Assembly (NCBI GenBank): GCA_040255845.1
Contig: JBDZVU010000005.1
Coordinates: 9,301-73,300, forward strand
Reading direction: 5' to 3'
Source: Nitrospiraceae bacterium
GTDB lineage: Bacteria; Nitrospirota; Nitrospiria; Nitrospirales; Nitrospiraceae
DNA length: 64,000 nt
Positions 46,561 through 61,826 of this stretch are shown here, piece by piece. The translations under genes and the position numbers were made by a program. The notes beneath the pieces were generated by a model, which worked only from the letters and a program-made list of their open reading frames with translations, ran no database searches and had not been told where the DNA came from. Numbering within the stretch: position 1 is the stretch's first letter; each line of letters opens with the position of its first letter.

Positions 46561-46598
46561 GCGTTTCCCTCTTGCCCCCGGGGTATCGGTTCTTTCTA

Positions 46599-46628: not shown

Positions 46629-46640
46629 CCATGATCTCGC

Positions 46641-46831: not shown

Positions 46832-46921
46832 CCGTCAAATTTTTACCAGCTTCAGGTTCGGCTGCCGAGCAGCCGCTCGATATAGTTCTCAGCCCACAGA
46901 TTAGCCAGGAAGGAGACCGGG

Positions 46922-48555: not shown

Positions 48556-49080
48556 ATGTTCGGTCTTCGGGGGGCCGCTGCGGCGGCGTCCATCGGAGCC
48601 TTCGTCGCACTCTTCATTCCCGCCCCGTTGTTCGCCACGCACGAGGCTGATCACCGATTCACGGTCGAGGGCTTTGTCTGCGGCCCGGATGGTCGAGGCA
48701 GGCCTAACGTCGAAGTGCTTGTGAAGGATACGCGCATCTCCTACGGTCAGACCGTCAAGACCGATGGAGATGGTTATTACAAGGCGACCTTTCATTTGCA
48801 TAACGACAACCTGGGTGATCCGCTGTACGTCGAGGCAGAGGGGGCGCAGCAGCAGCATAAAGTCCAATTCGATCCGAAAGACCTGGAGAGCGAGCGGAAG
48901 ATTCAGGTCAATTTCGGGAGCGGCTGTGTCCATGATCCCAGCGCGCCTCCGATGTGGGCCTGGTCGATGCTTGGAGCCGTGGCTGTTGGCGTTGGAGGAT
49001 TCGTCGGAGCGAAGGTGCTGCGAGCCCGGAGGAAACACGCTGCGAAACGGGAGAAGGGGCACGGAAAGAAAAGGAAGTAA
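48556..49080 (+). CDS. Hypothetical exported protein: signal peptide, beta-sandwich (carboxypeptidase-regulatory-like) domain, C-terminal TM anchor and Lys/Arg tail
   Basis: Signal peptide ...IPAPLFA-THEADH. Pattern GFVCGPDGRGRPNVEVLVKD...TDGDGYYKATF. TM WAWSMLGAVAVGVGGFVGA. Start ATG 48556 or GTG 48535. Confidence 0.55.
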   Translation: MFGLRGAAAAASIGAFVALFIPAPLFATHEADHRFTVEGFVCGPDGRGRPNVEVLVKDTRISYGQTVKTDGDGYYKATFHLHNDNLGDPLYVEAEGAQQQHKVQFDPKDLESERKIQVNFGSGCVHDPSAPPMWAWSMLGAVAVGVGGFVGAKVLRARRKHAAKREKGHGKKRK

Positions 49081-49314: not shown

Positions 49315-49872
49315 ATGAAGCGGATGAACGTGCAAGGGCTGGTGTCGGCGTTGGGAATGCTCGGTATGGGATGCGTTCTGGCGGCCTGCGGCGGCGAGGG
49401 TGGAGGAGAAGGGCCGGTGGTGCCCCCGCCCCCGGCTCCTGCGGAATACGCCGACAAGCATATGCCGGCCGGCTGGTGGACGGACGCCGGGAAGATGGAA
49501 GAAGGCCGAAAGTTGTTCATCGGCGAAACGAACCCCGACGTCAACTGCGCCAGCTGCCACGGCAAGGATGGCAAGCCGGTGAAGGCCGGCGCGCGCGACT
49601 TCCGGGTGTCCGAGCGGATGAAGCTCTATAGCGATTCGGTGTGGTTCTGGCGCATATCGGAAGGCGTGCCCAACACCAAGATGAAGGCATGGAAGACCAA
49701 GCTGTCCGAGGAGGACCGCTGGAAGCTGGTGCTGTTCGAGCGCAGTTTTGGGCTGGCCGGCAAAGGATACGACCCGGCCAAGAAGGAATGGGTCGATGCC
49801 GCCAGTGTCGCGGCCGCTCCTGCGGCGACTCCGGCTGCGGCGCCCACCGCTTCGGCCGAAGCTGGCAAGTAA
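49315..49872 (+). CDS. Monoheme c-type cytochrome lipoprotein
   Basis: Lipobox VLAACG, heme site CASCH, Met-ligand region NTKMKAW, Ala/Pro-rich C-terminal tail. Confidence 0.8.
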   Translation: MKRMNVQGLVSALGMLGMGCVLAACGGEGGGEGPVVPPPPAPAEYADKHMPAGWWTDAGKMEEGRKLFIGETNPDVNCASCHGKDGKPVKAGARDFRVSERMKLYSDSVWFWRISEGVPNTKMKAWKTKLSEEDRWKLVLFERSFGLAGKGYDPAKKEWVDAASVAAAPAATPAAAPTASAEAGK

Positions 49873-49911: not shown

Positions 49912-51615
49912 ATGAAAACCTGGCAGCGCAGTCTCTTGACTCTCTGTGCGCTTCTCGCGGTCTGCGGAGGGGTCGCCTACGCGCAGGCGCCCGGTGCTCC
50001 TCCTGTCGAGTTCCCCTACACGGGAAACCGGACCGCGGTGTGGATCGTCGCCCAGCTGCACATTCTGTTCGCGGGATTCATCCTCGGCGCGCCGATTTTC
50101 GTCGTCATCTCGGAGTGGCTGGGATACCGCAAGCAGGATCCGCGGTACGACCGTCTGGCGAAGGAAGTCACCAAAGTGACCGTCATTCTTTACAGCATGA
50201 CGGCGCTGACGGGGGGCCTCTTCATTTTCGTCCTGCTCGCCACCTATCCGCAGTTTACCACCTGGCTCATCAATCACTTTTTCCTGGTGTTCGCGGTCGT
50301 GTACCCGCTGCTGTTCATCGGCGAAACGATCGTGCTGTACATGTATTTCTATACGTGGGATGCGTGGAAAGGCGCAAAGAAGGCCCGCCACATCGCGCTC
50401 GGCGTGCTACTCAACCTTATCGGCACCATCACGCTGTTCGTGATCGACGGCCCGACCTCCTTCATGAACACCCCAGTGAAGGCCGAAGGCATCTCTCCTG
50501 CAGAATTTCTTGCCACTGCCACGCTCTGGGACAAGATCTTCAACTATAGCTGGATGCCGCTCAACCTCCATCGGCTGGTGGGCAACGTCACCTTCGGCGG
50601 GTTCGTGGCCGGGCTGATCGCCGCCTACATGTACATGGGCTCGAGCAAGGAGGAAGAGCGGTCGTACTACGACTGGATGGGTTTCGTCGGCAACATGATC
50701 GGAGTCGGGGCGCTGCTGTTCCTACCGTTCATGGGCTACCTGCTCGCCTACGAGCTCTGTGACTACGATGCCTCCATCTGCCCTTACATGATGGCGGACC
50801 AGCTGTCGATGTTCTTCGAAATGCAGGGGGCGATGATCGGCCTGATCTTCCTCGCCAGCAACTACTACATCTGGCTGAGCATGAAACGGATCGAGGGGGT
50901 CGAGAAGGTCCGAATGACGATTCTCGCCCCGATCGTCATGGTGCTGCTGCCGATCGTCATGACGAAGGTCCTGACCGACTACCCGGCGCCTGATCCCACC
51001 TCGCTGGTCTTCCTGCTCCCAATGCTGTTGGCGCCAGTGCTCCTGGGCCGCTTTATCCCGGTCACTGTTTCCTCCAGCACGGTCATCAAGATCGGCTTTC
51101 TCATGGTGGTCGTGGGTAACGCGATTTGGATGACGCCTCACGGCTTCGTCCCGACGGGCGCCAAGCTGGTGGCGGAGTTGGAGCTTCCGTCGGACTGGAA
51201 CTGGCTTGCGCTGATGCCGGCCAAAAATTCAGCCGCCTTCACGCTGGTCTTCGTGACGGTGGTGAACTATGTCATTTACAACCGGGCCGTCACGCAAGGG
51301 ACCATCGTGTGGGGCAAGATCGATTTCGCCTCTCAATTCGTGCTGATCTTCCTGGCGTTCAGCGCCATTTGGACCATGGGCCTCATGGGAGCGGTCCGGT
51401 CGCTGCTGCGGAAGTACTTCCATACGTACAATTTGCTCCCGGACTTCACGGCCGAATCGTTCACGCCGACTCTGGCCTATTCCGCCTGGTGGATTACAGC
51501 GATTACCGTCATTTTCTACGCGGTGGTCAGCTTCGCCATTTTGGTCACGCTGCGCGCCGCGTATCCGAAGGACCATGCGCCGGAGGGCAGCCCGGTTCCC
51601 GCCGGAGCCAAGTAG
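49912..51615 (+). CDS. Cytochrome bd-like protein, paralog 1 (CydA-related polytopic heme protein; no CydB partner)
   Basis: Signal-peptide-like N-terminus (LLAVCGGVAYAQA). CydA-like helix 1 VWIVAQLHILFAGFILGAPIF. About 14 predicted TM segments. Confidence 0.7.
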   Translation: MKTWQRSLLTLCALLAVCGGVAYAQAPGAPPVEFPYTGNRTAVWIVAQLHILFAGFILGAPIFVVISEWLGYRKQDPRYDRLAKEVTKVTVILYSMTALTGGLFIFVLLATYPQFTTWLINHFFLVFAVVYPLLFIGETIVLYMYFYTWDAWKGAKKARHIALGVLLNLIGTITLFVIDGPTSFMNTPVKAEGISPAEFLATATLWDKIFNYSWMPLNLHRLVGNVTFGGFVAGLIAAYMYMGSSKEEERSYYDWMGFVGNMIGVGALLFLPFMGYLLAYELCDYDASICPYMMADQLSMFFEMQGAMIGLIFLASNYYIWLSMKRIEGVEKVRMTILAPIVMVLLPIVMTKVLTDYPAPDPTSLVFLLPMLLAPVLLGRFIPVTVSSSTVIKIGFLMVVVGNAIWMTPHGFVPTGAKLVAELELPSDWNWLALMPAKNSAAFTLVFVTVVNYVIYNRAVTQGTIVWGKIDFASQFVLIFLAFSAIWTMGLMGAVRSLLRKYFHTYNLLPDFTAESFTPTLAYSAWWITAITVIFYAVVSFAILVTLRAAYPKDHAPEGSPVPAGAK

Positions 51616-51664
51616 GAACGAACCAGCGCACGCCTGGGGCGTGGACGAGAACAGAGGGAGTGTC

Positions 51665-52468
51665 ATGGGCAAAGCAATGCTAAAGATCGTGGTGGGGTTG
51701 GCCGTCGGGGCCGGTCTGTGGGTCCTCACGATGGCGCTTGAGTTTCCGCCCGTGTTCCGGTGGCTCTTCTTCGCATACGCCATCCTGGGCACCGCCGTGT
51801 TCCTCATGCTCGATGCACCAAGCATGAAGCCGCTCAGCGGCGTCAAGGCGCTCACCGCCTTGTTGGCCTTTTACGTCGTCCTCTGTACGGTGTACATCGC
51901 CGGGGCGTCGCTCTGGCCGCAGTACGATCCCGAGGACGAGAAGGAAAAAATCGAAAAGATTCTGGCGCCCAAACGGAAGGCCACCGAACAGGGAAAAGCC
52001 GAAGAGCTGCTCGCCCGTGCCAAGGCCCTCGACGAACAAGCCAAGGCTCTGGCCGAGCGCATCAAGGCCCTGGGCGGTGATCAGGCTCCCGCAGCCCAAG
52101 CGGCAGGAGGCGCAGGTGCCCCTCCCGCCACGACGGCGGCCGGGGGCGACATTCTCAAAATCGGCGAGGATCAGTGGCAGCTTCAGGAGTGCTACAACTG
52201 TCACAAGCTGCGGGGTGAAGGTGGCAAAAAGCGGGGTCCGGAGCTCGACAACATCGGCAATCTCCTCTCTCCGGAGGAAATCGCCCGGAAGATCCTCGAC
52301 CCGAAATCGTACAAGGCCGAGGGGTTCGATACGGAGTATGAGAAGGGCAAAATGCCCGACAAGTACAAGGATCTGATGGAGCCGAAGGACGTCGAAGCGT
52401 TGGCCGTCTGGCTCGCCACCTTCAAAAACACGTCGGTGAATACGCCCAAGCCCATCAAGATGAAATAG
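51665..52468 (+). CDS. Membrane-anchored monoheme cytochrome c (3 TM, coiled coil, cyt c domain)
   Basis: Three N-terminal hydrophobic helices, Glu/Lys/Ala-rich linker, heme site CYNCH, Met ligand region KGKMPDKY. GAGGGAG RBS before ATG 51665. Confidence 0.75.
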   Translation: MGKAMLKIVVGLAVGAGLWVLTMALEFPPVFRWLFFAYAILGTAVFLMLDAPSMKPLSGVKALTALLAFYVVLCTVYIAGASLWPQYDPEDEKEKIEKILAPKRKATEQGKAEELLARAKALDEQAKALAERIKALGGDQAPAAQAAGGAGAPPATTAAGGDILKIGEDQWQLQECYNCHKLRGEGGKKRGPELDNIGNLLSPEEIARKILDPKSYKAEGFDTEYEKGKMPDKYKDLMEPKDVEALAVWLATFKNTSVNTPKPIKMK

Positions 52469-53407
52469 ATGATGACGCAGCCCAAGTTGAAATCCAAGGT
52501 CCGCTGCAAGGACCGCGAAATCGGCGAAGTATCCAAGGTCATCGTCGACCCGTTGTCGCACGAGATCAGCCATATCGTCGTCTCGATGAACGGCAGCGGA
52601 GAGCGCCAGGTTCCGATGGGCCAGGTGGAGTCCGTGACGGACGATCTCGTGGCCTTGCGCACCCTCTCGGCCGAGCTGCTGGCCCTTCCTCCGTTCAAGC
52701 GCGACGACTACGTCACGACCCATGAGGTCGAAATCGCGCACCTGGAGGAAAAGGTTCACGTAGCTCCGGGCGAAGTGCTCGTGCCGCTGCCCGAGCTGGA
52801 GAAGTCCGTGAAGCGGCGGACCTTCTTCATGAATCTCACCCATGTGATCGGCTTCCTCATCGGCCTTCCCATTGCCTTCCCGGTTCTGCGGTACCTCATG
52901 AAGCCGATGTACGCGCCGTTCGACAACAGCTGGCTGAAGATCGGCAACGTCAGCAAGATCAAGCAGGAAGATGTCGGCGTCCAGTTCAAGTACAAGCGCA
53001 CAGTCAAGGAAGCCTACATGCCGGAGGCCGAGATCGAGAAGAACGTCTGGATCCTCAAGGCCACGCCGGCCGTGCTGGACAAGGTGTACCAGGGAAAGGA
53101 CATGGAGTTTCGCGACGCCGCCGGCAAGACCGTGTGGACCAACAAGAAGGACATGCCGTACGTGGCGTTCAGCGGAAAGTGCCCGCATCTGGGCTGCGGC
53201 TACAAGTGGCGTCAGCATAAGCTGCTGGGCCAGGTATTCCTGTGCCCCTGCCATCTGAGCATCTACGACGCCGCCGGGAAGGTGCTGGACGGGCCTGCGC
53301 CGCGCCCCCTCGACGCCCTGCCTATTAAGGTATCGGCGGGCGGCGACGTGGAAATCATCGATATGGAATTCAAGGCCGGTACAAAAACCCAAATCCGGAT
53401 CATCTGA
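52469..53407 (+). CDS. Rieske 2Fe-2S protein with an N-terminal PRC-barrel-like extension
   Basis: Rieske boxes CPHLGCG and CPCHLSIYD. Internal twin-arginine KRRTFFMNL plus TM at about residue 114. N-terminal 110 aa resemble a PRC barrel (DREIGEVSKVIVDPLSHEISHIVVS). Confidence 0.8.
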   Translation: MMTQPKLKSKVRCKDREIGEVSKVIVDPLSHEISHIVVSMNGSGERQVPMGQVESVTDDLVALRTLSAELLALPPFKRDDYVTTHEVEIAHLEEKVHVAPGEVLVPLPELEKSVKRRTFFMNLTHVIGFLIGLPIAFPVLRYLMKPMYAPFDNSWLKIGNVSKIKQEDVGVQFKYKRTVKEAYMPEAEIEKNVWILKATPAVLDKVYQGKDMEFRDAAGKTVWTNKKDMPYVAFSGKCPHLGCGYKWRQHKLLGQVFLCPCHLSIYDAAGKVLDGPAPRPLDALPIKVSAGGDVEIIDMEFKAGTKTQIRII

Positions 53408-53412: not shown

Positions 53413-54525
53413 ATGCAACCAGCGCCCACGACCAGTCCCGAACCGACCGTCCTCGAAAAAGTCATTGCATTCGTCGACGAGCGCGTCGGCCTTAAAACGA
53501 TCCAAGCCAAGATGCTGAACGAGCCGGTGCCTGGCGGCTCGCGCTGGGCCTATATCTTCGGCTCGGTCCTGCTGTTCATCTTCATCATGCAGGCGGTGAC
53601 GGGCATCCTGCTGATGTTCTACTACGTGCCCACGGCCGATCACGCGTATGCCAGCACGCAATACATCATCCACGACGTCGATTACGGCTGGTTCCTGCTG
53701 AGCTATCACTTCTGGGGATCGTCCGCGATGGTGGTCTGCGTGTTCGCCCACATGTCGCAGGTGTTTTTGTGGGGGGCGTACAAGAAGCCCCGGGAAATGA
53801 TCTGGCTCGTCGGGCTCGCCTTGTTCGGCATCGTCATGGGTTTCGGCTTCACCGGCTATCTGCTCCCCTGGGATCAGCGGGCCTATTGGGCCACCACGGT
53901 CGGTGTGGAGATCATGGACAAGACCCCGCTTCTCGGGGATTTCATGGCGCGGTTCCTCAAGGGCGGTCCCACGCCCGGGCAAATGACGCTGAGCCGGTTT
54001 TTCGTCATCCACGTCATGATTTTGCCGGCGGCCCTCATGGGGTTGGCCGGGCTACACCTGTTCCTGTTCCGTACGGCCGGACCGGCCGGTCCCTTTCGTG
54101 GGACTCCGGAGGAACTCAAGGCCAAGACGGACTATTTCTTCCCCCGTCAAGTCTGGAAGGACATCGTCGGCATGGTCACCGTCTTTCTGGGCATCTGCAC
54201 CCTTGCCTTTTGGGAGCCGGTGGTGCTGCTGGAGGAAGCGACGCCCGATCCTGGCGATTACCATCCCGAGCCGGAATGGTACTTTCTCTTCCTCTTCCAG
54301 TTGCTGCGGCTGAAGATTTTCTCCGGTGAGTTCGGGCAGTTTCTTGGGGCGATCGCGCTGCCCGGGGCTTTCATGGCCCTCCTCGCGGCGCTGCCCTTCA
54401 TCGACCGCGACCCTGAACGCAATATTTTCAAGCGCCCGGTCGCCCTCATAGGCTGGATCGTGGTCATGACGACGATTCTCATCTTTACCGTGTCCGCCAT
54501 TATCAACCGGGAATTCTTGGATTGA
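53413..54525 (+). CDS. Cytochrome b (unsplit b6 plus subunit IV type)
   Basis: Helix B His pair 13 residues apart (YHFWG...FAHM). Helix D pair 14 residues apart (VIHVM...GLHLF). Qo motif PEWYFLFLFQLLR. Confidence 0.85.
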   Translation: MQPAPTTSPEPTVLEKVIAFVDERVGLKTIQAKMLNEPVPGGSRWAYIFGSVLLFIFIMQAVTGILLMFYYVPTADHAYASTQYIIHDVDYGWFLLSYHFWGSSAMVVCVFAHMSQVFLWGAYKKPREMIWLVGLALFGIVMGFGFTGYLLPWDQRAYWATTVGVEIMDKTPLLGDFMARFLKGGPTPGQMTLSRFFVIHVMILPAALMGLAGLHLFLFRTAGPAGPFRGTPEELKAKTDYFFPRQVWKDIVGMVTVFLGICTLAFWEPVVLLEEATPDPGDYHPEPEWYFLFLFQLLRLKIFSGEFGQFLGAIALPGAFMALLAALPFIDRDPERNIFKRPVALIGWIVVMTTILIFTVSAIINREFLD

Positions 54526-54559: not shown

Positions 54560-55522
54560 ATGACGGATCGCGCACCTCTCTCGCCCCTGAAACTCGGCCT
54601 GAACGTCCTGTGGTCCGCCTTTTGGACCGGATTCCCGATCAAGCTCGCATTTGCCCTCCTCTTTATGGCGCTGGGCATGATCCACTTCGAGGCTCGGCTG
54701 GGCCTCGGGTTTGTGATGGTCCTGGCCAGTCCCATCACCGTCTTTGCCATGCCGATTCTGATGATGCTCGGCTCGCATTTCGGCGAAGGCGCGGGGCTGG
54801 GGTTGCTGTTCCTGCTGTGCATCCCCATCGACATCTGGGCCATGGGGGTCGTCGCGAAAACGTTGTTCCTCGAACGGCTGCACCTGGAGCCTCCGGACGG
54901 GATCGGCTTTTCCCTGTGGTGGAAGAGCGCCGTGACCGGCGCCCTCTACTTGCCCGTCCTGTGGATGATCGTAAGCACCGTCACGGAAACCGCCATTGCC
55001 ATCAGCCATTCGATCTTCGAGTTGGAGATTTTTCACGGCCTACCCGTTGCCGAAAAAATCAGCATAGAACTGACCTTGTGGGGCGGCGTCTCCGCCACCG
55101 TGCTTATCATCCTGCTGGTGGTCGGCGTGTCACTGATCGGGCGTCTCGTGCGAAGCGCCGCTCAGAACGCCGCCCCGGCTTCCGATAATTATCAACGTCT
55201 CGTGACGCGCTGGGATCTCATGCGCGTCCCGGCGGACCAGGGGCTGATGCTGACCGCGATGACGGGCGCCGGCGTGGTGCTCTCGGTGTTGTTCTGGGCC
55301 GCCTTGCCTGCCAGTACGCCGCATCCGCACGAGTGCTGCAAGCCCCTGGAAGTGAAGCGGCAGCCGCCGTTCAAACCGATCGATGCGTTGAACCGGGGAG
55401 AACGGACCCTCGCGCAGCTGGCGGCGCAAGTGGAGGCCATCGAAAAGCAACGGGCCGAAGAGGAAGCCGCCAAGGACAAGCACAAATCGGGAAAAGGGAA
55501 ATCCGCCGAACCGAAGCCTTGA
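54560..55522 (+). CDS. Orphan polytopic membrane protein with an HPHECC motif and a charged C-terminal tail
   Basis: About 6 hydrophobic helices. STPHPHECCKP at residues 252-262 (nt 55322-55339). Coiled, Lys-rich C-terminus. I recognise no family. Confidence 0.55.
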   Translation: MTDRAPLSPLKLGLNVLWSAFWTGFPIKLAFALLFMALGMIHFEARLGLGFVMVLASPITVFAMPILMMLGSHFGEGAGLGLLFLLCIPIDIWAMGVVAKTLFLERLHLEPPDGIGFSLWWKSAVTGALYLPVLWMIVSTVTETAIAISHSIFELEIFHGLPVAEKISIELTLWGGVSATVLIILLVVGVSLIGRLVRSAAQNAAPASDNYQRLVTRWDLMRVPADQGLMLTAMTGAGVVLSVLFWAALPASTPHPHECCKPLEVKRQPPFKPIDALNRGERTLAQLAAQVEAIEKQRAEEEAAKDKHKSGKGKSAEPKP

Positions 55523-55655
55523 CGCGCGCCGATTCGTCCGGCCGCGGGTGACGCGCACTGTCTTGGAGAATCGGCAGGCGACTGAAACAGATGGCCATGA
55601 CACCCGCAGGAGACGACAGCGGGCGGCCCGGCATCCTGATGAAGGGGTGAGATTC

Positions 55656-57500
55656 ATGATGCACCAGACCAATCAAGGACGTATTCGCGGAGCCGCGGCG
55701 ACGCCGCTCGCTGTTCTCGCGTTGACCGCCGCCGCTCTGCTGGCCCTGCCCTCGCTGGGCCTCGCCGCCGACGCCGGTTCCGGCACCGCGACTGCCTACC
55801 GGGACATTCCCGGGATCGGCAGCCGCAACCTGGTGTGGATCATCGCGCAGTTGCATCTCCTGCTCGCCGGGTTTGTTCTGGGCGTGCCGATCTTTGCGTG
55901 GCTGTGCGAAGTCGTGGGGTGGAAAACAGGCGAAAAGCGCTACGACAAGCTCGCGAAGGAATTCACCAAGCTGCTGAGCTCCTCATACGCGACGACGGCC
56001 TTATTCGGCGGCATCCTCCTCTTCCTCCTGATCGGCTTTTATCCCAAGCTGATGGCCTATCTGACGGACATCTTCTTTCCGTCTTTCCTCGTGTATTGTC
56101 TGCTCTTCCTGCTCGAGACCGCCACGCTGTACCTCTATTGGTACGGATGGGACGCCATGCAGGACGGCGGCAAAAAGACCTTCCACATTTTCCTGGGCTT
56201 TCTCCTCAACGTGTTTGCCTTCTTTATCATGATCGTCCCGAACAGTTGGGCGACGTTCCAAGCGAGTCCCGTCGTCATCGCGGAGGGGACCGATCTGCAG
56301 CGGGCCTGGGCGGCGACATGGAATCCCACGTGGTGGCCGGTCAATATTCACCGGTTGATCGCCAACGTGGTGCTCGGCGGGTACATCTGCGGCGCCTATG
56401 CCGGCATTCGGTACCTGTCCGCCAGGGCGGCGGAAGAGCGCGAGCACTACGATTGGATGGGGTACGTCGGCAATTTCATCGGGGTGTTCGGGTTGTTGCC
56501 GCTGCCGTTCGCCGGCTATTGGCTGATGCGTGAGATCTACCAGTACAACCAGCAGATGGGGATCACGCTGATGGGCGGCTTCCTGTCCTGGCTGTTCATT
56601 CTGCAAGCCATGCTGATCGGGGTGCTGTTCCTCGGCTCGAACTACTATTTCTGGCTGGGCATCACGCACCGCATTCCCGGCAGTGAGATCAAGTACCGAC
56701 GGCCCATCCTCGCCATGCTGGTCATTCTGCTCCTTTGTTTAGGGGTCTGGATGACGCCGCACTCACTGGTGGCGAGCTTGGAAGAAGCCCGGAAGATGGG
56801 CGGCACGCACCATCCGCTGCTCGGCGTCTTTGGCGTCATGTCGGCCAAGATGACGGTGTCCAACCTCATGATTTTGGTCACGTTCATGAGCTTCATTATG
56901 TACTGGCGCGCGGGCAAGGAAGAGACCGCAACCTGGGCGCGCCTGGCGAAAGCCGTGATGGGCGGCGTGCTGGTGATCGCCGGGATCGTAGTCGTGGTTC
57001 TGGGCGTCTGGGGGTACTTCGTTCCAGCCATCATCCGGATCAATTACTTCTCCACCTCGCAAGTCGGCATCGTGCTGTTCGTCATGCTGACCATCACGCC
57101 GTTGACGGCCCTGTTGCTGAAGAGTGCCCGGACGACGACAGAAATGGTGTGGGGCCGGATGCCGCCGCGTGCGGGCTATGCCCTCGTGCTGAACGCCATC
57201 ATGGTCATTTTGCTCATGACGCTGATGGGCTATGCCCGGTCCTCGTCCCGCGTGCACTGGCATATCTACGGCGTGATGCGCGATTCGTCCCAGTACGCGT
57301 TTTCTCCCGCGCTCGGCTACGCGGCCGCCTTTATGGCGCTGAACACCTTCTTCTTCTGTTTGCTCGTGGCGTTCATCTTCTGGGTGGCCACGATGGGCGA
57401 CAAGGGGAAGGCCGGCCATGGGGCTCCGGTCAAGGGAGACCTCGGAACGGCGGCGTTGCCGGCCATGGCGGGCGGCGCACCTGAGCAGGGCGCAAAGTAA
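55656..57500 (+). CDS. Cytochrome bd-like protein, paralog 2 (His-enriched; candidate non-canonical terminal oxidase)
   Basis: Paralogous to 49912-51615 (VWIIAQLHLLLAGFVLGVPIF). Signal-peptide-like N-terminus. Has extra His motifs (THRIPG, GGTHHPLLG, VHWHIYG) that paralog 1 lacks. ATG 55656 chosen. Confidence 0.7.
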   Translation: MMHQTNQGRIRGAAATPLAVLALTAAALLALPSLGLAADAGSGTATAYRDIPGIGSRNLVWIIAQLHLLLAGFVLGVPIFAWLCEVVGWKTGEKRYDKLAKEFTKLLSSSYATTALFGGILLFLLIGFYPKLMAYLTDIFFPSFLVYCLLFLLETATLYLYWYGWDAMQDGGKKTFHIFLGFLLNVFAFFIMIVPNSWATFQASPVVIAEGTDLQRAWAATWNPTWWPVNIHRLIANVVLGGYICGAYAGIRYLSARAAEEREHYDWMGYVGNFIGVFGLLPLPFAGYWLMREIYQYNQQMGITLMGGFLSWLFILQAMLIGVLFLGSNYYFWLGITHRIPGSEIKYRRPILAMLVILLLCLGVWMTPHSLVASLEEARKMGGTHHPLLGVFGVMSAKMTVSNLMILVTFMSFIMYWRAGKEETATWARLAKAVMGGVLVIAGIVVVVLGVWGYFVPAIIRINYFSTSQVGIVLFVMLTITPLTALLLKSARTTTEMVWGRMPPRAGYALVLNAIMVILLMTLMGYARSSSRVHWHIYGVMRDSSQYAFSPALGYAAAFMALNTFFFCLLVAFIFWVATMGDKGKAGHGAPVKGDLGTAALPAMAGGAPEQGAK

Positions 57501-57578: not shown

Positions 57579-58208
57579 ATGAGTGAAGTCGTCAAGCTGC
57601 AGTTGATCGGCCTTTCGGTCGTCGGCACCGGAGTCATTATCCTGCTCTTCATTAGGGCGCAATTCGTTCGTGTCATCGGGTTCGTCGCCATCGTGCTCGG
57701 TCTATTTTCCTTGGTGGCGCTCGCGGTGCCGCAGATGGCGTCGCTTCCCCCGGCAGAGGAGAGCATCGACATCGCCAGCATCAAGACGCCGGCCGACATG
57801 GCGGCCATCGGTCAGAAGATCTTCTTCAGCAAGGGACAATGCGCCCTCTGCCACTCCATCGGGCCGAGTGAGTCCGCACGGTGTCCGGATCTGAAAGGTA
57901 TCGGCGCCAAACTCCGGCGGGAATTCATCTTCGAGAGCCTGACGCAGCCTCAGGCCTACATTTACCTGGACTATCGGCATGAGGGCCCGCCCAAGGAGTA
58001 TCCGGCCCGCATGCCCTACATCAACAAGAACCCGATCGGTCTCTCCAAGAACGAAATCTTGTCCGTGATCGCCTTCTTGCAGCAGATGAGCGGAGAGCCG
58101 ATTTCAGTCAGCCCGTCTGAGCTGGAGATGCCATCGCAACCGCCGGCGCCGCCGGTGAAGGCCGCGGACGCGGAGTCTGGCCCCGTCGCTGTGGCGCACG
58201 CGCGCTGA
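57579..58208 (+). CDS. Membrane-anchored monoheme cytochrome c (2 TM)
   Basis: Two N-terminal TM helices, heme site CALCH, Met ligand region ARMPYI. Confidence 0.75.
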   Translation: MSEVVKLQLIGLSVVGTGVIILLFIRAQFVRVIGFVAIVLGLFSLVALAVPQMASLPPAEESIDIASIKTPADMAAIGQKIFFSKGQCALCHSIGPSESARCPDLKGIGAKLRREFIFESLTQPQAYIYLDYRHEGPPKEYPARMPYINKNPIGLSKNEILSVIAFLQQMSGEPISVSPSELEMPSQPPAPPVKAADAESGPVAVAHAR

Positions 58209-58217
58209 GGAGGAACT

Positions 58218-58937
58218 ATGGGTGGGCCGTTAGTCAAACCGGTTATCTTGATGGTCGTTATCTATTTGATTCTGAAATTCATCGTGCCCAATATCCCCGG
58301 GTCTGCACCGCTCCCATCCAGCCTCATTTTCCTGTACCTCATGCTGACGGCCACGGGGATCGTTATTTTTGCCACTCTCAGTGGAGAATCCAAAGATGCC
58401 TTTTGGGGACCGATCCAGCGATTTCTAACCGGCGAAGGCATCGGCGCCCTGCAAACCGCGCGGTATGCCGTTCTCCTGTTGTTCCCGATTCTGGTGGGGT
58501 GGCAGACCTTTGGCAGCACGGCGCCCAGCGATCAGCCGCCAGCTGAAAACCGAACGATCCACCCCGCTCCTCCGGGGGAATATACCGGCCTGGCCAATCC
58601 CGTCCCGAAGACGCCCGAAAATATCATGCAGGGCAAGGGATTCTATGCGGCGTTTTGCTCGCCCTGCCATGGCGGAAATTTCGACGGCAAAGGACCGGCG
58701 GCCCGCGGATTCAATCCGCCGCCGGCGAACTTCGCCGATCCCACGACGATTGCGATGTTGCAGGAGAGCTACCTCTTCTGGCGCATCAAGAAAGGCGGGG
58801 TCGGGTTGCCGATCGAAGGCATGCCATGGAAGTCCGCGATGCCGCGGTGGGAAGTTGAGCTGCCGGACGAGTGGATCTGGAAAATCATCATGGGTGAGTA
58901 CGACGGAGCCCACCAGTCGCCGCGAACCTGGGAATAG
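58218..58937 (+). CDS. Membrane-anchored monoheme cytochrome c (3 TM)
   Basis: Three TM helices, heme site CSPCH, SAMPRW. The cytochrome domain is homologous to the lipoprotein cytochrome at 49315 (FWRIKKGG versus FWRISEG). Confidence 0.75.
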   Translation: MGGPLVKPVILMVVIYLILKFIVPNIPGSAPLPSSLIFLYLMLTATGIVIFATLSGESKDAFWGPIQRFLTGEGIGALQTARYAVLLLFPILVGWQTFGSTAPSDQPPAENRTIHPAPPGEYTGLANPVPKTPENIMQGKGFYAAFCSPCHGGNFDGKGPAARGFNPPPANFADPTTIAMLQESYLFWRIKKGGVGLPIEGMPWKSAMPRWEVELPDEWIWKIIMGEYDGAHQSPRTWE

Positions 58938-58996
58938 GTCTGAGCGGCGCGGAAGGCAACGAGCCCTGCGCTTTGCGAGAAAGTGAAGAGGCAACT

Positions 58997-59821
58997 ATGG
59001 CGTACTGCAGACAACGGTCTCTAAACACGGCGGTCGGTGCCGTGCTGGTCCTTGGGCTGGCCACCGTGATGCCCGCACAGGCGCAGGAAAGCGTATCGGT
59101 GAGGGCCAATCTGGTGACCGGAACCTTGCCGGCCGACGATCCCAATGCCGCCGCCTGGAGCAGCGTTCCGCCTGCCCAGTTCCCGCTCTCGCCGCAAGTG
59201 CACTGGCAGAATCGCATTCAAGAAGTCACGGTGAAGGACGTCAAGGTGCGCGCCCTCCACGACGGGACGCAGGTCGCGATCATGCTCGAATATGAAGACC
59301 CCACCGAGGATCCCGACGATGCGGCGGCGCTTGAATTCATGGTCGGGGACAAGAAGGCGCACTTTGCGCATGGGCAGCCGATGCTCCAGGTGGAAGGCGG
59401 CCCGGTGAATATTTGGTACTGGAAAAATAAAGAGAGCAAGGCGGTCGACATGAATGCCCAGGGCTTCGGTACCTTGAAAGTCCAGGAGCACCAGGACGTG
59501 AAAGCCAAGGGAGCGTACGCGAACGGGACGTGGAAGGTCGTATTCAGCCGTCCGCTCGCGACCGAGCATCCGGAGGCCGACACGCAGATCAAGCCCGGCG
59601 AGTTCATCAACATCGCGTTCGCCATCTGGGACGGAAAGAAGGATGCGAGCGGGGAGCTCCGGGAGAAGGGATCGCAAAAGGCGGTCTCCTCCTGGTGGTA
59701 TTTCCGCGCCGAACCGCCTCCCGACTATTCGCCCTACCTCTATGCGGTGCTGGCCGTCGGGTTGGCCGCGGGCTTTCAGTTCGTGTTGATCCGCAAGCTG
59801 AAGAAAGGGCAGACAGCATGA
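58997..59821 (+). CDS. EbdC/NxrC-like (EB_dh, DOMON-like) heme b domain protein with signal peptide and C-terminal TM anchor
   Basis: Signal peptide ...VMPAQA-QE. Pattern VKVRALHDGTQVAIMLEYEDPTED...IWYWK...WKVVFSRPL...IAFAIWDG. C-terminal TM YLYAVLAVGLAAGFQFVLI. Confidence 0.6.
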   Translation: MAYCRQRSLNTAVGAVLVLGLATVMPAQAQESVSVRANLVTGTLPADDPNAAAWSSVPPAQFPLSPQVHWQNRIQEVTVKDVKVRALHDGTQVAIMLEYEDPTEDPDDAAALEFMVGDKKAHFAHGQPMLQVEGGPVNIWYWKNKESKAVDMNAQGFGTLKVQEHQDVKAKGAYANGTWKVVFSRPLATEHPEADTQIKPGEFINIAFAIWDGKKDASGELREKGSQKAVSSWWYFRAEPPPDYSPYLYAVLAVGLAAGFQFVLIRKLKKGQTA

Positions 59822-60819
59822 AGGCGGCGAGGCTTCAGGTATGGGGTGCCGTCACCGGCCTGATCGGGCTCTGGGCCATGGCGGCGGGCGGATGCGCCAG
59901 CGAGCAGCAGAAGAAGGGCCAAGAGCTGTACACCCACTACTGCATGCATTGCCATGGCGAAAGCGGGCGGCAAAACGAGGGCTTCAATTGGTCTTCGATG
60001 CCTGATCCGAAGCCCAAAGATCTGTCCAACAAGTCCGAGATGGGCACCTTCAATGATGAGGAAATCTTCAATACCATCTCGCGCGACATGAAGGATACCA
60101 GCCCCGACGGGGACAAGATTGGCGACGACGAATTCGCCGTTCCCACCATGCCGACCTTTAAGTACACCCTGTCAGAAGAGGAGATCTGGGCCATCGTCGC
60201 GCATGTGCGCAGCCTGCATGGGATGAAGCTCCAGTTCAACGTCGAAGGCCGAAAGAAGGAGCTGGAAGAAGCGCACCAGGCGGCGCAACGAAAGTTCGAG
60301 GAAGCGAAGCAGGCCTACGAAGCCGCCGAAAAGAAAGCCAGCGATGAAGCCGATGCGAAAGGCGTCGAAGTGGATGAGTCCGTCTATGCCAAGGAGCAGG
60401 CGACGATGGTCGCGGCCAAGAAAGAGCTGGATGCGTCCCAAGCGGCACTCGTGAATTTCTCCACGCGTCCCGGCAAGGGCGTGACCGTGCCGAGACCCGA
60501 ACTCACGTTGGCGGCCGACCAGGTGGCGAAGCAGGCGGAGTTGGGGAAGCGTCTCTACACCAACAAATATGGGTGCAACGGGTGCCATGCGATCGGGGGA
60601 GAAGGCGGCAAAGTCGGGCCGGCCTTGGACCGCGCGGGTTTCCGGCTCAACCCCACCTGGGTCTATCGCTGGATCAAGAATCCTCAAGCCATGAAACCGG
60701 AGACCCGCATGCCAGCCTTGGGGCTGAGCGACGCCGATGCGAAGGCCGTCACCATGTATCTGGGCACCCTGAACGCGGTGAAGACCGAGGAAGCGGCCGT
60801 CGACCAGCCGGCCAGCTGA
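59818..60819 (+). CDS. Diheme c-type cytochrome lipoprotein with a central coiled coil
   Basis: Lipobox MAAGGC. Heme sites CMHCH and CNGCH. ATGA overlap with the preceding gene. The ORF-track N-terminal extension (from 59530) is rejected. Confidence 0.8.
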   Translation: MKAARLQVWGAVTGLIGLWAMAAGGCASEQQKKGQELYTHYCMHCHGESGRQNEGFNWSSMPDPKPKDLSNKSEMGTFNDEEIFNTISRDMKDTSPDGDKIGDDEFAVPTMPTFKYTLSEEEIWAIVAHVRSLHGMKLQFNVEGRKKELEEAHQAAQRKFEEAKQAYEAAEKKASDEADAKGVEVDESVYAKEQATMVAAKKELDASQAALVNFSTRPGKGVTVPRPELTLAADQVAKQAELGKRLYTNKYGCNGCHAIGGEGGKVGPALDRAGFRLNPTWVYRWIKNPQAMKPETRMPALGLSDADAKAVTMYLGTLNAVKTEEAAVDQPAS

Positions 60820-60889: not shown

Positions 60890-61777
60890 TCACCAATACC
60901 CTGCAATCACCCCCAGCAAGATCGCGCACCCATACCAGACGTGGGATCGGAACATCGTAAAGGCCTGGGTGGCATCGACAGGCCGTCGCAGTCGTAGGCT
61001 TTGCCGGGCGAAAAGGACGGCAACGGCCGACAGCATCGCGTAAAAGGGCCACCCGATTTCCATTTGCCGTCCGGCTTCGGTCAGCAAGACCAGCATGGCG
61101 GTGAGCGCGGCCAAGACGGCCAGCCACGTCCAGGACCCGAAGAGCAGGGCCGAAGATTTCACGCCGATCCGGCGATCATCTTCCCGATCCTGGAGCGCGT
61201 AGATCGTATCGTATGCCACCGCCCACAGGACGGTCGCGCCGAACAGGAGCCAGGCCGGTGTCTCCAGCCTGCCCCGGACCGCAGTCCACGCCATCACCGT
61301 GCCCCATCCAAACGCCAGACCGAGCATGGCTTGTGGAATATCGAGCCACCGTTTCGAAAACGGATAGAGCCAGGCAAGAACGACCGCAACGGGAGCCAAC
61401 ATCCACACGGAGCGGTCAAGCAACAGCACCAGACCCGCAGCCGCAACGAGCAGGACGGCCAGCAGAGCGGCTGCCAGCCTGGCTGATACGGCTCCGGATG
61501 CCAACGGGCGTGATTTGGTTCGTGAGACTTGACGATCGAAGGATCGGTCGGCAAGGTCGTTCACGATCACCCCGGCGCTCCGCATGAGGAAGGACCCGAC
61601 CAGGAAAATGGCGATGAGCGACGGCGCCGGAGTGCCCTGTGCCGCGAGGCTCAATGCCCAGAGCGAGGGCAGCAAGAGCAGCGCGGTGCCGGTTTGGCTC
61701 CGAAGCCGAATGAGGTCGGCGAGCGCGGTCCAGGGGATGCCTCCCTCCCGGCCTCTCGCCGATGGAGAAATCGCCAT
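60890..61777 (-). CDS. ubiA: UbiA-family aromatic prenyltransferase (4-hydroxybenzoate polyprenyltransferase-like; a quinone-pathway MqnP-type role is possible)
   Basis: Motif NDLADRSFDRQVSRTKSRPLASG and a second Asp-rich motif YALQDREDDRRIG. Eight to nine TM helices. ATG 61777 chosen over the 384-aa ORF. Confidence 0.75.
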   Translation of the reverse strand: MAISPSARGREGGIPWTALADLIRLRSQTGTALLLLPSLWALSLAAQGTPAPSLIAIFLVGSFLMRSAGVIVNDLADRSFDRQVSRTKSRPLASGAVSARLAAALLAVLLVAAAGLVLLLDRSVWMLAPVAVVLAWLYPFSKRWLDIPQAMLGLAFGWGTVMAWTAVRGRLETPAWLLFGATVLWAVAYDTIYALQDREDDRRIGVKSSALLFGSWTWLAVLAALTAMLVLLTEAGRQMEIGWPFYAMLSAVAVLFARQSLRLRRPVDATQAFTMFRSHVWYGCAILLGVIAGYW

Positions 61778-61826
61778 TGGCGTGTGACCATAGCGAAGGG
61801 GGTCTCTGCTGTCAAATTCGCGCGTT

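What the first reader, a model, noticed from the sequence alone, without database searches (positions are those of the whole stretch)
55656..57500. bd-like paralog 2 carries extra histidine motifs that paralog 1 lacks: candidate non-canonical O2-reducing site
The two CydA-like proteins (49912-51615 and 55656-57500) align over their N-terminal halves. Shared motifs are QLH in helix 1, the HIxLG helix, HRL and MTPH. Only paralog 2 has THRIPG, GGTHHPLLG (adjacent His-His) and VHWHIYG. Paralog 1 instead has an insertion of about 50 aa containing two extra helices. Both begin with cleavable-looking signal peptides, which canonical CydA does not have, and neither has a CydB partner. Adjacent His pairs on transmembrane helices resemble CuB ligation in heme-copper oxidases. 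Paralog 2 could therefore be a convergent heme/copper oxidase built on a bd scaffold. That link is an inference.
Basis: partly seen in the sequence, partly recalled or inferred. Interest (0 to 1): 0.7.

Follow-up and report, generated by a model that had tools for sequence, protein, structure and literature searches.

The report
Nitrospira bd-like putative terminal oxidase
This gene is the Nitrospira copy of a cytochrome bd-like membrane protein that was proposed in 2010 to be a new kind of haem/copper oxygen reductase, so the finding is real but rediscovers a known idea that is still untested.

Summary
The gene at 55656-57500 is real. It is the ortholog of Nide0901 / "bd-like_2", the OR-N2 subfamily of the cytochrome bd superfamily. 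It is 85-92% identical to the N. defluvii and N. moscoviensis genes and sits in the same 11-gene order.

- **H386 and H536:** invariant in 120 homologs from other phyla. H536 is also present in paralog 1.
- **H385 and H534:** invariant in Nitrospira, but only about 70% conserved elsewhere. Position 534 alternates His/Asp.
- **H338 (THRIPG):** not conserved, and it lies in a cytoplasmic loop.

The AlphaFold2 model (pLDDT 87.6) matches only CydA folds, not haem-copper oxidases. It puts HH and HWH in periplasmic loops, not in transmembrane helices. These loops flank the positions of the canonical haem ligands M393 and E445; E445 is lost here and replaced by Ser.

Across phyla the gene travels with c-type cytochromes and an EbdC-like haem b protein, so cytochrome c is the likely electron donor. 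Whether the histidines bind copper, non-haem iron or haem cannot be decided here. The copper idea is credited to Lücker et al. 2010 by later papers, and papers from 2024-2025 state the enzyme is still uncharacterised. The finding is already known, of moderate interest.

The parts
55656..57500 (+). Paralog 2 (p2): OR-N2-type cytochrome bd-like protein, 614 aa, ortholog of Nide0901 / bd-like_2
   Evidence: ORF. Pfam PF01654 on aa 57-298. 85-92% identical and syntenic to N. defluvii and N. moscoviensis. AlphaFold2 pLDDT 87.6, and the best PDB fold matches are all CydA.
55656..55769 (+). Signal-peptide-like N-terminus (aa 1-38, ...PSLGLA/AD). It is either cleaved or serves as the 14th transmembrane helix.
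   Evidence: Variable among 121 orthologs, then conserved AYRDIPGIGSRN. Helix 18-33 followed by a low-confidence linker. Absent from E. coli CydA.
55848..55856 (+). QLH: H67, equivalent to E. coli CydA H19 (axial ligand of the O2-binding haem)
   Evidence: hhalign, probability 93%. 121/121 in close orthologs and 118/120 in the diverse set.
56094..56117 (+). Y147...E154 in transmembrane helix 3: the positions of the proton-channel residues E99 (now an invariant Tyr) and E107 (retained Glu)
   Evidence: hhalign. 120/120 each. Agrees with Suppl. Table 6 of Murali et al..
56178..56198 (+). TFHIFLG: H177, equivalent to E. coli H126 (cytoplasmic end of helix 4)
   Evidence: 120/120.
56343..56354 (+). 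NIHR: H232, equivalent to E. coli H186 (haem b558 ligand)
   Evidence: phmmer alignment to PDB 9r2g_A. The Pfam match extends to aa 298. 120/120.
56664..56681 (+). THRIPG: H338, not conserved, in the cytoplasmic loop after helix 7
   Evidence: His 50 / Tyr 71 in close orthologs. Gap or other residues in distant homologs. Loop 340-342.
56751..56762 (+). MTPH: H369 at the periplasmic end of helix 8, shared with paralog 1
   Evidence: His 79 / Arg 27 / Lys 12 of 120. T367 and P368 invariant.
56799..56825 (+). GGTHHPLLG: H385 (clade-variable) and H386 (invariant OR-N2 signature) in the periplasmic loop before helix 9
   Evidence: H386 120/120, H385 85/120. Both 121/121 in Nitrospira. Loop 381-388 in the model. 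Paralog 1 has Leu at position 386.
56838..56849 (+). MSAK: invariant M395 and K398 at the top of helix 9. M395 is the proposed equivalent of the E. coli M393 haem b558 ligand.
   Evidence: 120/120. Equivalence comes from the curated table of Murali et al.. My own hhalign agrees but is not significant.
56937..57122 (+). Helical hairpin specific to paralog 2 (helices 10-11, aa ~428-489), absent from paralog 1
   Evidence: p2 R418..W499 is 81 aa; p1 R458..W467 is 9 aa. Helices 428-455 and 458-489.
57237..57272 (+). RSSSRVHWHIYG: invariant R528, R532 and H536; S529 at the position of the lost E445 haem ligand; W535; Y538; H534 alternating His/Asp. Periplasmic loop and beta-strand after helix 12.
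   Evidence: Mapping. Beta-strand 535-537. Paralog 1 has YFH504TY.
49912..51615 (+). Paralog 1 (p1): OR-N1-type bd-like protein, 567 aa
   Evidence: Orthologs at least 90% identical throughout Nitrospira. CydA fold.
50923..51048 (+). Two extra helices specific to paralog 1 (aa 338-379)
   Evidence: AlphaFold2 helices 338-356 and 362-379, pLDDT only about 50-65.
49315..49872 (+). c-type cytochrome upstream of paralog 1
   Evidence: Pfam Cytochrome_CBB3 / Cytochrom_C.
51662..52468 (+). Membrane-anchored c-type cytochrome (start approximate)
   Evidence: Pfam.
52469..53407 (+). Rieske Fe-S protein with an N-terminal PRC-barrel-like part
   Evidence: Pfam.
53413..54525 (+). Cytochrome b (b6 plus subunit IV-like) of the complex III module
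   Evidence: Pfam.
54560..55522 (+). Membrane protein with no known family, always found between cytochrome b and paralog 2
   Evidence: No Pfam or NCBIfam hit. Present in 75/75 Nitrospira loci, median identity 62%.
57579..58208 (+). Membrane-anchored monohaem cytochrome c, candidate electron donor
   Evidence: Pfam. Conserved neighbour.
58218..58937 (+). Membrane-anchored cytochrome c, candidate electron donor
   Evidence: Pfam. Conserved neighbour.
58973..59821 (+). EbdC / NxrC-like periplasmic haem b subunit with a C-terminal anchor (called alt_NxrC_1 in N. moscoviensis)
   Evidence: Pfam EB_dh and TIGR03477. Literature.
59824..60819 (+). Dihaem cytochrome c
   Evidence: Two Cytochrom_C stretches.

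Best explanation
**What it is.** The gene encodes the OR-N2 member of the cytochrome bd superfamily. It is the Nitrospira protein known as Nide0901 or bd-like_2, the candidate catalytic subunit of the organism's main terminal oxidase.

**Shown**
- It keeps the N-terminal four-helix O2-reduction core of CydA: H67 = H19, E154 = E107, H177 = H126, H232 = H186.
- It has lost the quinol-binding Q-loop and has no CydB partner.
- It has 13 transmembrane helices plus a signal-like helix.
- In every lineage examined it is encoded with c-type cytochromes and an EbdC/NxrC-like haem b protein.

**Inferred mechanism**
1. Electrons from nitrite oxidation reach the protein from the periplasm. They come through the neighbouring cytochromes c and the NxrC-like subunit rather than from quinol.
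2. O2 is reduced at the H67-ligated haem near the periplasmic face.
3. Protons arrive from the cytoplasm through the H177 / E154 / Y147 path, which would make turnover electrogenic.

**The extra histidines.** They form one conserved periplasmic-side pocket: GG-x-x-H386-P, M395-S-A-K398, and R528-S-x-x-R532-x-[H/D]534-W-H536-x-Y538. By the published curated alignment this pocket sits at the helix ends that carry haem ligands M393 and E445 in canonical bd oxidase. E445 is replaced by Ser, so the third cofactor site (haem b595 in E. coli) must be built differently. It may hold a His-ligated haem, or a Cu or non-haem Fe bound by H386, H534 and H536. The data here cannot separate these options.
For: **Identity and synteny**
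- p2 is 85% identical to Ca. N. defluvii and 92% to N. moscoviensis over the best tblastn segment. Eleven genes are collinear.
- The same gene order is present in all 80 Nitrospira loci wherever the flank is long enough.
- It matches the published locus description: bd-like_1, CIII_1, bd-like_2, cytochromes c, alt_NxrC_1. That locus is highly transcribed in N. moscoviensis (PMC6606698).
- Nide0901 is assigned to OR-N2 in PMC12342949.

**bd scaffold**
- Pfam PF01654 match.
- hhalign to E. coli CydA, probability 93%.
- phmmer hit to 9r2g_A.
- The top 10 Foldseek hits are all CydA/AppC, E = 3e-9 to 5e-6, TM-score 0.50-0.59.

**Loss of the quinol site and of CydB**
- The Pfam match ends at aa 298. 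Only ~15 residues link helices 6 and 7.
- No CydB-like sequence was found.

**Cytochrome c as donor**
- Flanking cytochrome c and EB_dh genes occur here and in 7 loci from other phyla.
- 22 of 120 diverse homologs carry fused CxxCH domains.

**Conserved pocket**
- Y147, E154, M395, K398, R528, R532, H386 and H536 are 120/120. S529 is 116, W535 is 117, Y538 is 113.
- H385, H386, H534 and H536 are 121/121 in Nitrospira.
- All of these lie on the periplasmic side in the AlphaFold2 model and by the positive-inside rule.
- The mapping E445 -> Ser, M393 -> Met, plus the conserved Trp, comes from Suppl. Table 6 of Murali et al..
Against: - There are no biochemical data. Reviews from 2024-2025 say subunit composition, function and O2 affinity are still unknown.
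- Homologs with the complete HH..HWH set occur in anammox bacteria (Scalindua, Anammoxibacter), which are anaerobes. O2 reduction is therefore not guaranteed for the family.
- The C-terminal mapping onto canonical haem ligands rests on a published curated alignment. My own profile alignment of that half is not significant (probability <3%).
- No model coordinates were available, so His-haem or His-His distances were never measured.
- H385 and H534 do not co-vary positively. The counts are 59 both His, 26 and 29 one only, 6 neither.
- No Sco, PCuAC or Cox11 gene lies next to the locus in the window.
Confidence: 0.7

Rival explanations
1. Copper (CuB-like) or non-haem-iron site. H386, H534 and H536 (possibly with H385) bind a metal ion next to the H67 haem. 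This metal replaces haem b595, whose Glu ligand is lost. The result would be a haem/metal binuclear O2-reducing centre on a bd scaffold. 2010.
For: - H386 and H536 are invariant across phyla. H385 and H534 are invariant in Nitrospira.
- Position 534 alternates between only His (88) and Asp (28), plus rare Asn and Tyr. That pattern is typical of a metal ligand and unusual for a haem axial ligand.
- E445 is replaced by Ser.
- All these residues lie on the periplasmic side.
- Most Nitrospira lack any haem-copper oxidase (literature).
- A SCO1/SenC gene lies 5 kb from an OR-N2 module in one non-Nitrospira locus, L085.
Against: - There are no metal data.
- No copper chaperone gene is in the window locus or in 6 of 7 other contexts.
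- H536 is also present in paralog 1, which lacks H386 and H534.
- H385 and H534 are each absent in about 30% of family members.
- The residues lie in loops, not in a helix-borne HH pair as in CuB.
- The fold is unrelated to haem-copper oxidases.
Confidence: 0.2
2. All-haem site. The enzyme keeps three haems as in CydAB or CydAA'. The conserved histidines (H536, H369 and/or H386) replace Glu445 and perhaps Met393 as axial ligands, or anchor haem propionates together with R528, R532 and K398. No copper is involved.
For: - H536 and MTPH-H369 are shared with paralog 1. They are therefore general OR-N1/N2 features rather than a special site of paralog 2.
- Invariant Arg and Lys residues next to them are classic propionate partners.
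- CydAA' of Caldivirga is active with b haems only (bioRxiv 10.1101/2021.01.16.426971).
- M395 is invariant.
Against: - It does not explain why H386 is strictly OR-N2-specific.
- It does not explain why position 534 tolerates only His or Asp.
- H369 is Arg or Lys in a third of homologs.
Confidence: 0.4
3. Not an O2 reductase. OR-N2 is a membrane electron-transfer module. It would work as a cytochrome c:quinone or NXR-anchoring module for reverse electron flow, and the histidines would bind electron-transfer haems.
For: - Full-motif homologs occur in anaerobic anammox bacteria.
- In L084-L086 the gene sits directly after ActA/ActB-like genes, in the place where alternative complex III has its quinol-reactive NrfD-type subunit.
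- A role in reverse electron transport was suggested for related bd-like proteins (PMC3578206).
Against: - The O2-site residues of the N-terminal bundle (H67, E154, H177, Y147) are invariant.
- Most Nitrospira genomes lack any canonical haem-copper terminal oxidase, and some cultured species also lack cbb3 and canonical bd oxidases.
- The locus is among the most highly transcribed during aerobic nitrite oxidation.
- No quinol-binding motif is known in the protein.
Confidence: 0.15
4. Paralog 1 (OR-N1) is the missing 'CydB'. The two paralogs form a CydAA'-type heterodimer, and the paralog-2-specific histidines lie at or near that interface.
For: - This is proposed in the literature (PMC12342949; PMC10839748).
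- Both genes lie within 6 kb of each other in 56/56 Nitrospira loci with enough flank.
- Both have the CydA fold.
Against: - In 6 of 7 OR-N2 contexts from other phyla there is no second CydA-like gene within 7-8 kb. The exception, L087, has two back-to-back OR-N2-like modules.
- Paralog 1 is grouped with the Rieske/cytochrome b genes and paralog 2 with the cytochrome c/EbdC genes.
- Murali et al. note that OR-N2 often occurs without another CydA.
Confidence: 0.3

Closest known systems
Nide0901 (Ca. Nitrospira defluvii) / bd-like_2 (N. moscoviensis): the 'novel terminal oxidase' attributed to Lücker et al. 2010
   Same: - Ortholog, 85-92% amino-acid identity.
- Identical 11-gene neighbourhood.
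- Same histidine set: H67, H177, H232, H264, H369, H385, H386, H534 and H536 are all invariant in 121 orthologs.
   Different: Nothing of substance. H338 is His here and Tyr in most orthologs. The signal-like N-terminus differs in sequence.
OR-N1 bd-like protein (paralog 1 in this window; bd-like_1)
   Same: - 35% identity over the full length.
- CydA core, signal-like N-terminus, no Q-loop.
- Shares MTPH, MxAK, R..R and the WH/FH histidine.
   Different: - Lacks H386 (Leu), H385, H534 (Tyr) and H264 (Tyr).
- Its extra helical hairpin lies before the MTPH helix instead of after helix 9.
- It is encoded with the Rieske/cytochrome b genes.
Canonical cytochrome bd quinol oxidase subunit I (E. coli CydA; PDB 6rko, 6rx4, 7oy2)
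   Same: - Fold (TM-score 0.5-0.6).
- H19, E107, H126 and H186 equivalents, and probably M393.
   Different: - No Q-loop or quinol site, and no CydB or CydX.
- E99 is replaced by Tyr and E445 by Ser.
- Four additional helices plus a signal-like helix.
- Cytochrome c genes as neighbours.
Haem-copper oxidase subunit I (CuB: one His plus an adjacent His-His pair)
   Same: Only an analogy: an adjacent His-His pair and a further His near a His-ligated haem on the positive side of the membrane. There is also a nearby conserved Tyr (Y538, two residues after H536).
   Different: - Unrelated fold. Foldseek E is about 1 and TM-score 0.13-0.17 for 4xyd_A and 7vuw_N.
- No Pfam COX1 match.
- The histidines are in loops, not in helices 6 and 7.
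Nitric oxide reductase FeB site (three His plus one Glu; my own knowledge, not tested here)
   Same: A His/carboxylate-ligated non-haem metal next to a haem. The His/Asp alternation at position 534 would fit such a site.
   Different: NOR belongs to the haem-copper superfamily. There is no sequence or fold relation to p2.
CydAA' of Caldivirga maquilingensis (qOR4a/b)
   Same: A bd-family oxidase without CydB, and active with b-type haems only.
   Different: It is a quinol oxidase with a Q-loop site, has 8 helices, and retains E445.

Membership tests
Cytochrome bd superfamily, subunit I (Pfam PF01654) | Significant match to the CydA profile and the CydA fold | tested here: met
   PF01654 scores 70.4 bits against a cut-off of 26.2, on aa 57-298 only. 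hhalign probability 93%. The top 10 Foldseek hits are all CydA.
Cytochrome bd superfamily, subunit I (Pfam PF01654) | His19 and His186 haem ligands; E107 and H126 of the proton path | tested here: met
   H67, H232, E154 and H177 are aligned. Each is invariant or nearly so in 120 diverse homologs.
Canonical quinol-oxidising cytochrome bd (qOR, CydAB) | Periplasmic Q-loop with the quinol site between helices 6 and 7 | tested here: not met
   The profile match stops at aa 298. About 15 residues join helices 6 and 7 in the model. The literature agrees.
Canonical quinol-oxidising cytochrome bd (qOR, CydAB) | Glu445 ligand of haem b595 and Glu99 | tested here: not met
   The E99 position is an invariant Tyr147. 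The E445 position is Ser529 by the curated alignment of Murali et al.. My own C-terminal alignment was not significant.
Canonical quinol-oxidising cytochrome bd (qOR, CydAB) | Adjacent cydB (and cydX) gene | tested here: not met
   No PF02322-type protein is among the 20 neighbouring ORFs scanned. tblastn of E. coli CydB against the window gives only E >= 1.8.
OR-N2 subfamily (Murali, Gennis & Hemp 2021) | 14 predicted helices; no quinol site; residue pattern H/M/S/H/Y/E/H/W at the H186/M393/E445/H19/E99/E107/H126/Trp columns | tested here: met
   13 helices plus a signal-like helix. H232, M395, S529, H67, Y147, E154, H177 and W535.
OR-N2 subfamily (Murali, Gennis & Hemp 2021) | Operon with several cytochromes c and an EbdC-like haem b subunit | tested here: met
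   Genes 57579-60819. The same arrangement occurs in 7 loci from other phyla.
OR-N2 subfamily (Murali, Gennis & Hemp 2021) | Orthology to the reference Nide0901 | tested here: met
   85% identity to FP929003 at about 877.5-879.3 kb, with collinear neighbours. Nide0901 is assigned to OR-N2 in PMC12342949.
Haem-copper oxidase superfamily | Subunit I fold (12 helices) and a COX1 profile match | tested here: not met
   No COX1 hit in Pfam. Haem-copper oxidase and NOR chains appear only at E about 1, TM-score 0.13-0.17.
Haem-copper oxidase superfamily | CuB bound by three histidines about 5 Å from a high-spin haem | not testable with these tools
   No coordinates or metal-aware model were available. 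Only conservation and membrane side could be established.

The most novel reading that the evidence does not exclude
In OR-N2 proteins the haem b595 site of bd oxidase, whose Glu445 ligand is lost, has been replaced by a mononuclear Cu or non-haem Fe. This metal would be bound by H386, H/D534 and H536, possibly with H385 or Y538, next to the H67 haem. That would be a haem/metal binuclear O2-reducing centre invented independently of the haem-copper oxidases. It would be fed by cytochrome c and would serve as the main oxidase of Nitrospira.
Probability: 0.2. Interest if true: 0.85.

Novelty: already known. Interest (0 to 1): 0.35.

Why it matters
Nitrospira are the dominant nitrite oxidisers, and include complete ammonia oxidisers, in soils, waters and wastewater plants. 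Most of them lack any haem-copper oxidase, so this protein is the leading candidate for the enzyme through which they respire O2.

If it really has a haem/copper (or haem/iron) site on a bd scaffold, it would be a new class of terminal oxidase. Its O2 affinity and proton stoichiometry would then set the energy yield and low-oxygen behaviour of nitrification.

That question has been open since 2010, and this window adds no new way to test it. What this analysis adds is a sharper target list for mutagenesis and structure work:
- H386 and H536 are family-invariant.
- H385 and H534 are clade-level, with a His/Asp alternation at 534.
- H338 can be dropped.
- The pocket also contains invariant M395, K398, R528, R532, W535 and Y538.

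Tried and rejected
1. **Membership in the haem-copper oxidase family.** Rejected by fold and profile.
2. **Mapping the C-terminal half onto E. coli CydA by profile alignment.** Not significant (probability <3%). Two mutually inconsistent weak alignments appeared, one of which agrees with the published M395 = M393 equivalence. I therefore rely on the curated table of Murali et al. and say so.
3. **Measuring His-His and His-haem distances.** The structure tool returns no coordinates, and none are in /data.
4. **Contact inference from covariation.** Mean-field DCA timed out. MI-APC on 261 sequences (effective number about 70) gave weak signal: 13 of the top 100 pairs were short-range. It gave only hints that the HH loop co-varies with the periplasmic tip of helices 10/11. 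This was not used as evidence.
5. **Positive co-occurrence of H385 and H534 as a sign of a four-His site.** Not found (counts 59/26/29/6).
6. **NCBIfam.** No model for either paralog or for the 320-aa membrane protein.
7. **Lücker et al. 2010.** The paper is not in the held library. Its claim is cited through later papers.
8. **Search for a solved structure or a biochemical study of the Nitrospira oxidase.** None was found in the PDB copy or in the paper library.
9. **Exact-sequence look-up of paralog 1 to identify the source contig.** Not on record.
10. **The 181-aa protein at 48535-49080 as a possible copper chaperone or cupredoxin.** It aligns only weakly (20-24% identity) to cupredoxin-containing neighbours of OR-N2 in other phyla, and it lacks their H..C-x2-H-x2-M motif.


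Full report
**1. What is at the coordinates**

The ORF at 55656-57500 (+) encodes a 614-aa membrane protein, here called p2. An in-frame GTG at 55548 is also possible, but orthologs start like the ATG version. The ORF at 49912-51615 encodes a 567-aa paralog, p1. The two share 35% identity over their full length, E = 4e-88. In both, only the first ~240 residues after an N-terminal extension match Pfam Cyt_bd_oxida_I, at 70 and 79 bits.

**2. Which organism and locus**

A scan of one genome per species returned 80 loci, all from Nitrospira or Nitrospirales. The best matches were N. moscoviensis (92%) and Ca. N. defluvii (85%) at 867-889 kb of FP929003. Eleven genes are collinear with both genomes:

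1. cytochrome c
2. p1
3. cytochrome c
4. Rieske protein
5. cytochrome b
6. an unassigned membrane protein
7. p2
8. cytochrome c
9. cytochrome c
10. EbdC/NxrC-like haem b protein
11. dihaem cytochrome c

The same order holds in every Nitrospira locus with enough flank, from 53/53 to 80/80 depending on the gene.

This is the locus described for N. moscoviensis as bd-like_1, complex III_1, bd-like_2 (putative complex IV) and alt_NxrC_1. [quoted passage not shown] 2010. In the classification of Murali, Gennis and Hemp it is subfamily OR-N2, and p1 is OR-N1. As of 2024-2025 the literature states that composition, function and O2 affinity remain experimentally unknown. I found no solved structure and no biochemical paper.

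**3. Which histidines matter**

| Residue(s) | 121 Nitrospira orthologs, >=79% id | 120 diverse homologs |
|---|---|---|
| H67 | invariant | 118/120 |
| H177, H232 | invariant | 120/120 |
| H386, H536 | invariant | 120/120 |
| H385 | invariant | 85/120 (otherwise N/S/T/F/Y) |
| H534 | invariant | 88 His, 28 Asp |
| H369 (MTPH) | invariant | 79 His, 27 Arg, 12 Lys |
| H264 | invariant | 67 His |
| H338 | 50 His / 71 Tyr | absent |

- Invariance within Nitrospira is weak evidence, because 310 of 545 positions are invariant at that depth.
- The diverse set comes from Methylomirabilota, Rokubacteria, Acidobacteriota, Tectomicrobia, Myxococcota, Calditrichota, Chloroflexota and anammox Planctomycetota.
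- Y147, E154, M395, K398, R528 and R532 are also 120/120 in that set.
- The full HH..HWH pattern occurs in 58/120, including Scalindua and Anammoxibacter.
- H385 and H534 do not co-occur more than expected (59/26/29/6).
- In p1 and other OR-N1-like sequences the columns read as follows: 386 is Leu, 385 is variable, 534 is Tyr or Asn, and 536 is His (p1 H504). MTPH is mostly kept, with Arg replacing the His in some.
- Of the three 'paralog-2-only' motifs, only H386 (with H385 and H534 at clade level) is truly specific. THRIPG is not conserved, and half of HWH is shared.

**4. Where they sit**

The AlphaFold2 model of p2, built on a 150-sequence alignment, has pLDDT 87.6 and pTM 0.87. It shows a signal-like helix (aa 18-33), a disordered linker, and 13 long helices.

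- Using the positive-inside rule and the CydA orientation, H67, H232, H369, H385/H386 and H534/H536 are all at the periplasmic side.
- H177, H264 and H338 are at the cytoplasmic side.
- HH lies in the loop at aa 381-388, just before helix 9.
- HWH lies in a loop and short beta-strand (aa 531-542) after helix 12. Neither pair is on a transmembrane helix.
- Foldseek against the PDB returns only CydA/AppC chains as significant hits (E = 3e-9 to 5e-6, TM-score 0.50-0.59). Haem-copper oxidase and NOR chains appear only at chance level.

hhalign against E. coli CydA gives H67 = H19, Y147 = E99, E154 = E107 and H177 = H126. phmmer against 9r2g_A gives H232 = H186.

For the C-terminal half my own profile alignment is not significant. 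The curated Supplementary Table 6 of Murali et al. gives M393 -> M430/N434, E445 -> S563 and a conserved Trp -> W569 in their OR-N2 reference. These translate to M395/M399, S529 and W535 in p2. On that mapping HH is 9-10 residues before the Met ligand of haem b558. HWH brackets the conserved Trp just after the lost Glu ligand of haem b595, amid invariant R528 and R532. This is the best available argument that the histidines cap a cofactor pocket. It is an inference from alignment and topology, not a measured distance.

**5. Paralog differences**

The p1 model has pLDDT 77.7 and also a CydA fold. It confirms two extra helices (aa 338-356 and 362-379, low confidence) before the MTPH helix. Between the invariant R418 and W499 of p2 there are 81 residues, forming helices 10-11. 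Between R458 and W467 of p1 there are 9. Both proteins therefore end up with 13 helices plus one, matching the '14 helices' in the literature.

**6. Context across phyla and likely mechanism**

I examined seven OR-N2 loci outside Nitrospira.

- The gene is always followed by one to three cytochrome c genes and a multihaem cytochrome c fused to an EB_dh haem b domain.
- 22 of 120 homologs have cytochrome c domains fused to the OR-N2 protein itself.
- A second CydA-like gene is present only in L087, which has two divergent modules. No CydB was seen.
- In L084-L086 ActA/ActB-like genes precede the module.

This supports periplasmic c-type or b-type cytochromes as the electron donors. It also supports OR-N2 as a self-sufficient membrane subunit, and it weakens an obligatory OR-N1/OR-N2 heterodimer.

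With the invariant H67, E154, H177 and Y147 core, the most economical reading is a cytochrome-c-fed, electrogenic O2 reductase. Its third cofactor site has been rebuilt around H386 / H(D)534 / H536.

- **For a metal ion:** the His/Asp alternation at position 534 fits a metal ligand.
- **For haem ligation or propionate anchoring:** H536 is shared with p1, Arg and Lys residues are nearby, and no copper-chaperone genes lie in the window.
- **Caution:** anammox homologs with the full motif argue against assuming O2 reduction for the whole family.

**7. Verdict**

- **Observation:** partly confirmed.
- **Interpretation:** partly supported, but already published and still undecidable in silico with these tools.
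- **Novelty:** already known.
- **Interest:** moderate (0.35). The protein is important and unsolved, but the finding adds no new route to solving it beyond a refined residue list.

Noticed in passing
window 54560-55522 (+): A 320-aa multi-pass membrane protein with no Pfam or NCBIfam match sits between cytochrome b and paralog 2. It is present at this position in 75/75 Nitrospira loci. It evolves much faster than its neighbours (median 62% identity against about 87-91%). It could be a linker or assembly subunit of the proposed complex III-IV supercomplex.
   Followed up: partly
window 56937-57122 (p2 aa ~428-489) and 50923-51048 (p1 aa 338-379): Each paralog carries its own extra two-helix hairpin at a different place in the C-terminal half. 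Both therefore have the same helix count but not the same helices.
   Followed up: yes
P0126, P0274, P0278, P0286, P0330, P0333, P0336, P0342 and others: 22 of 120 diverse OR-N2 homologs carry one or two CxxCH cytochrome c domains fused to the protein (20 at the C-terminus, 2 near the N-terminus). These include the anammox bacteria Scalindua and Anammoxibacter. This is direct architectural evidence that cytochrome c feeds this family. It also shows that the full HH..HWH set exists in anaerobes.
   Followed up: partly
L082:1967-6796, L084:12324-15899, L085:12844-17836, L086:12991-17854, L087:13579-14490: In five of seven OR-N2 loci from other phyla, the oxidase module is flanked by a recurring gene set. 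The set comprises Usp+PCP_red, radical SAM-SPASM+PCP_red, a CbiA/ParA-like ATPase and a small PCP_red protein. It may be a maturation system. No counterpart lies next to the Nitrospira locus. Its function is unknown.
   Followed up: no
L084:2387-6162, L085:3855-7426, L086:3682-7358 (divergent in L082:1-1325): ActA-like (pentahaem) and ActB-like (Fe-S) genes of alternative complex III lie directly upstream of OR-N2. No NrfD-type ActC lies between them, so OR-N2 occupies the place of the quinol-reactive membrane subunit.
   Followed up: no
L087:6786-7562 (-), L087:12800-13546, L088:3633-4535; window 48535-49080: Proteins next to OR-N2 in a Myxococcota and a Scalindua contig combine a CarboxypepD_reg beta-sandwich with a type-1 copper (cupredoxin-like) motif, H..C-x2-H-x2-M. 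The window's 181-aa protein upstream of the locus has only a weak beta-sandwich match plus a C-terminal anchor, and it lacks that motif.
   Followed up: partly
L085:1298-2995 (-), L086:2408-3478 (-): A SCO1/SenC copper chaperone gene and ferrochelatase lie about 5 kb upstream of the OR-N2 module in one metagenomic contig. A related contig has ferrochelatase only. This is the only copper-handling gene seen near any OR-N2 module examined.
   Followed up: no
window 57237-57272 (p2 R528-G539): H536 is followed two residues later by a nearly invariant Tyr (Y538, 113/120) on a predicted beta-strand, so the two side chains should point the same way. The motif is preceded by invariant R528 and R532. 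Paralog 1 keeps H504-T-Y506. The His-Tyr pair recalls the cross-linked His-Tyr of haem-copper oxidases, but this is only a lead.
   Followed up: no
window 55548-55655: The ORF is open from an in-frame GTG 108 nt upstream of the ATG. Ortholog N-termini and a purine-rich stretch (GAAGGGG) ending 9 nt before the ATG favour 55656 as the start.
   Followed up: partly
window 43417-47938 and 60890-62044 (-): The respiratory locus is flanked by isoprenoid and quinone genes. On one side are DXP synthase, IspG/GcpE and an HpnH-like radical SAM protein (DUF3463). On the other side is a UbiA-family prenyltransferase with an NDxxDRxxD motif.
   Followed up: no
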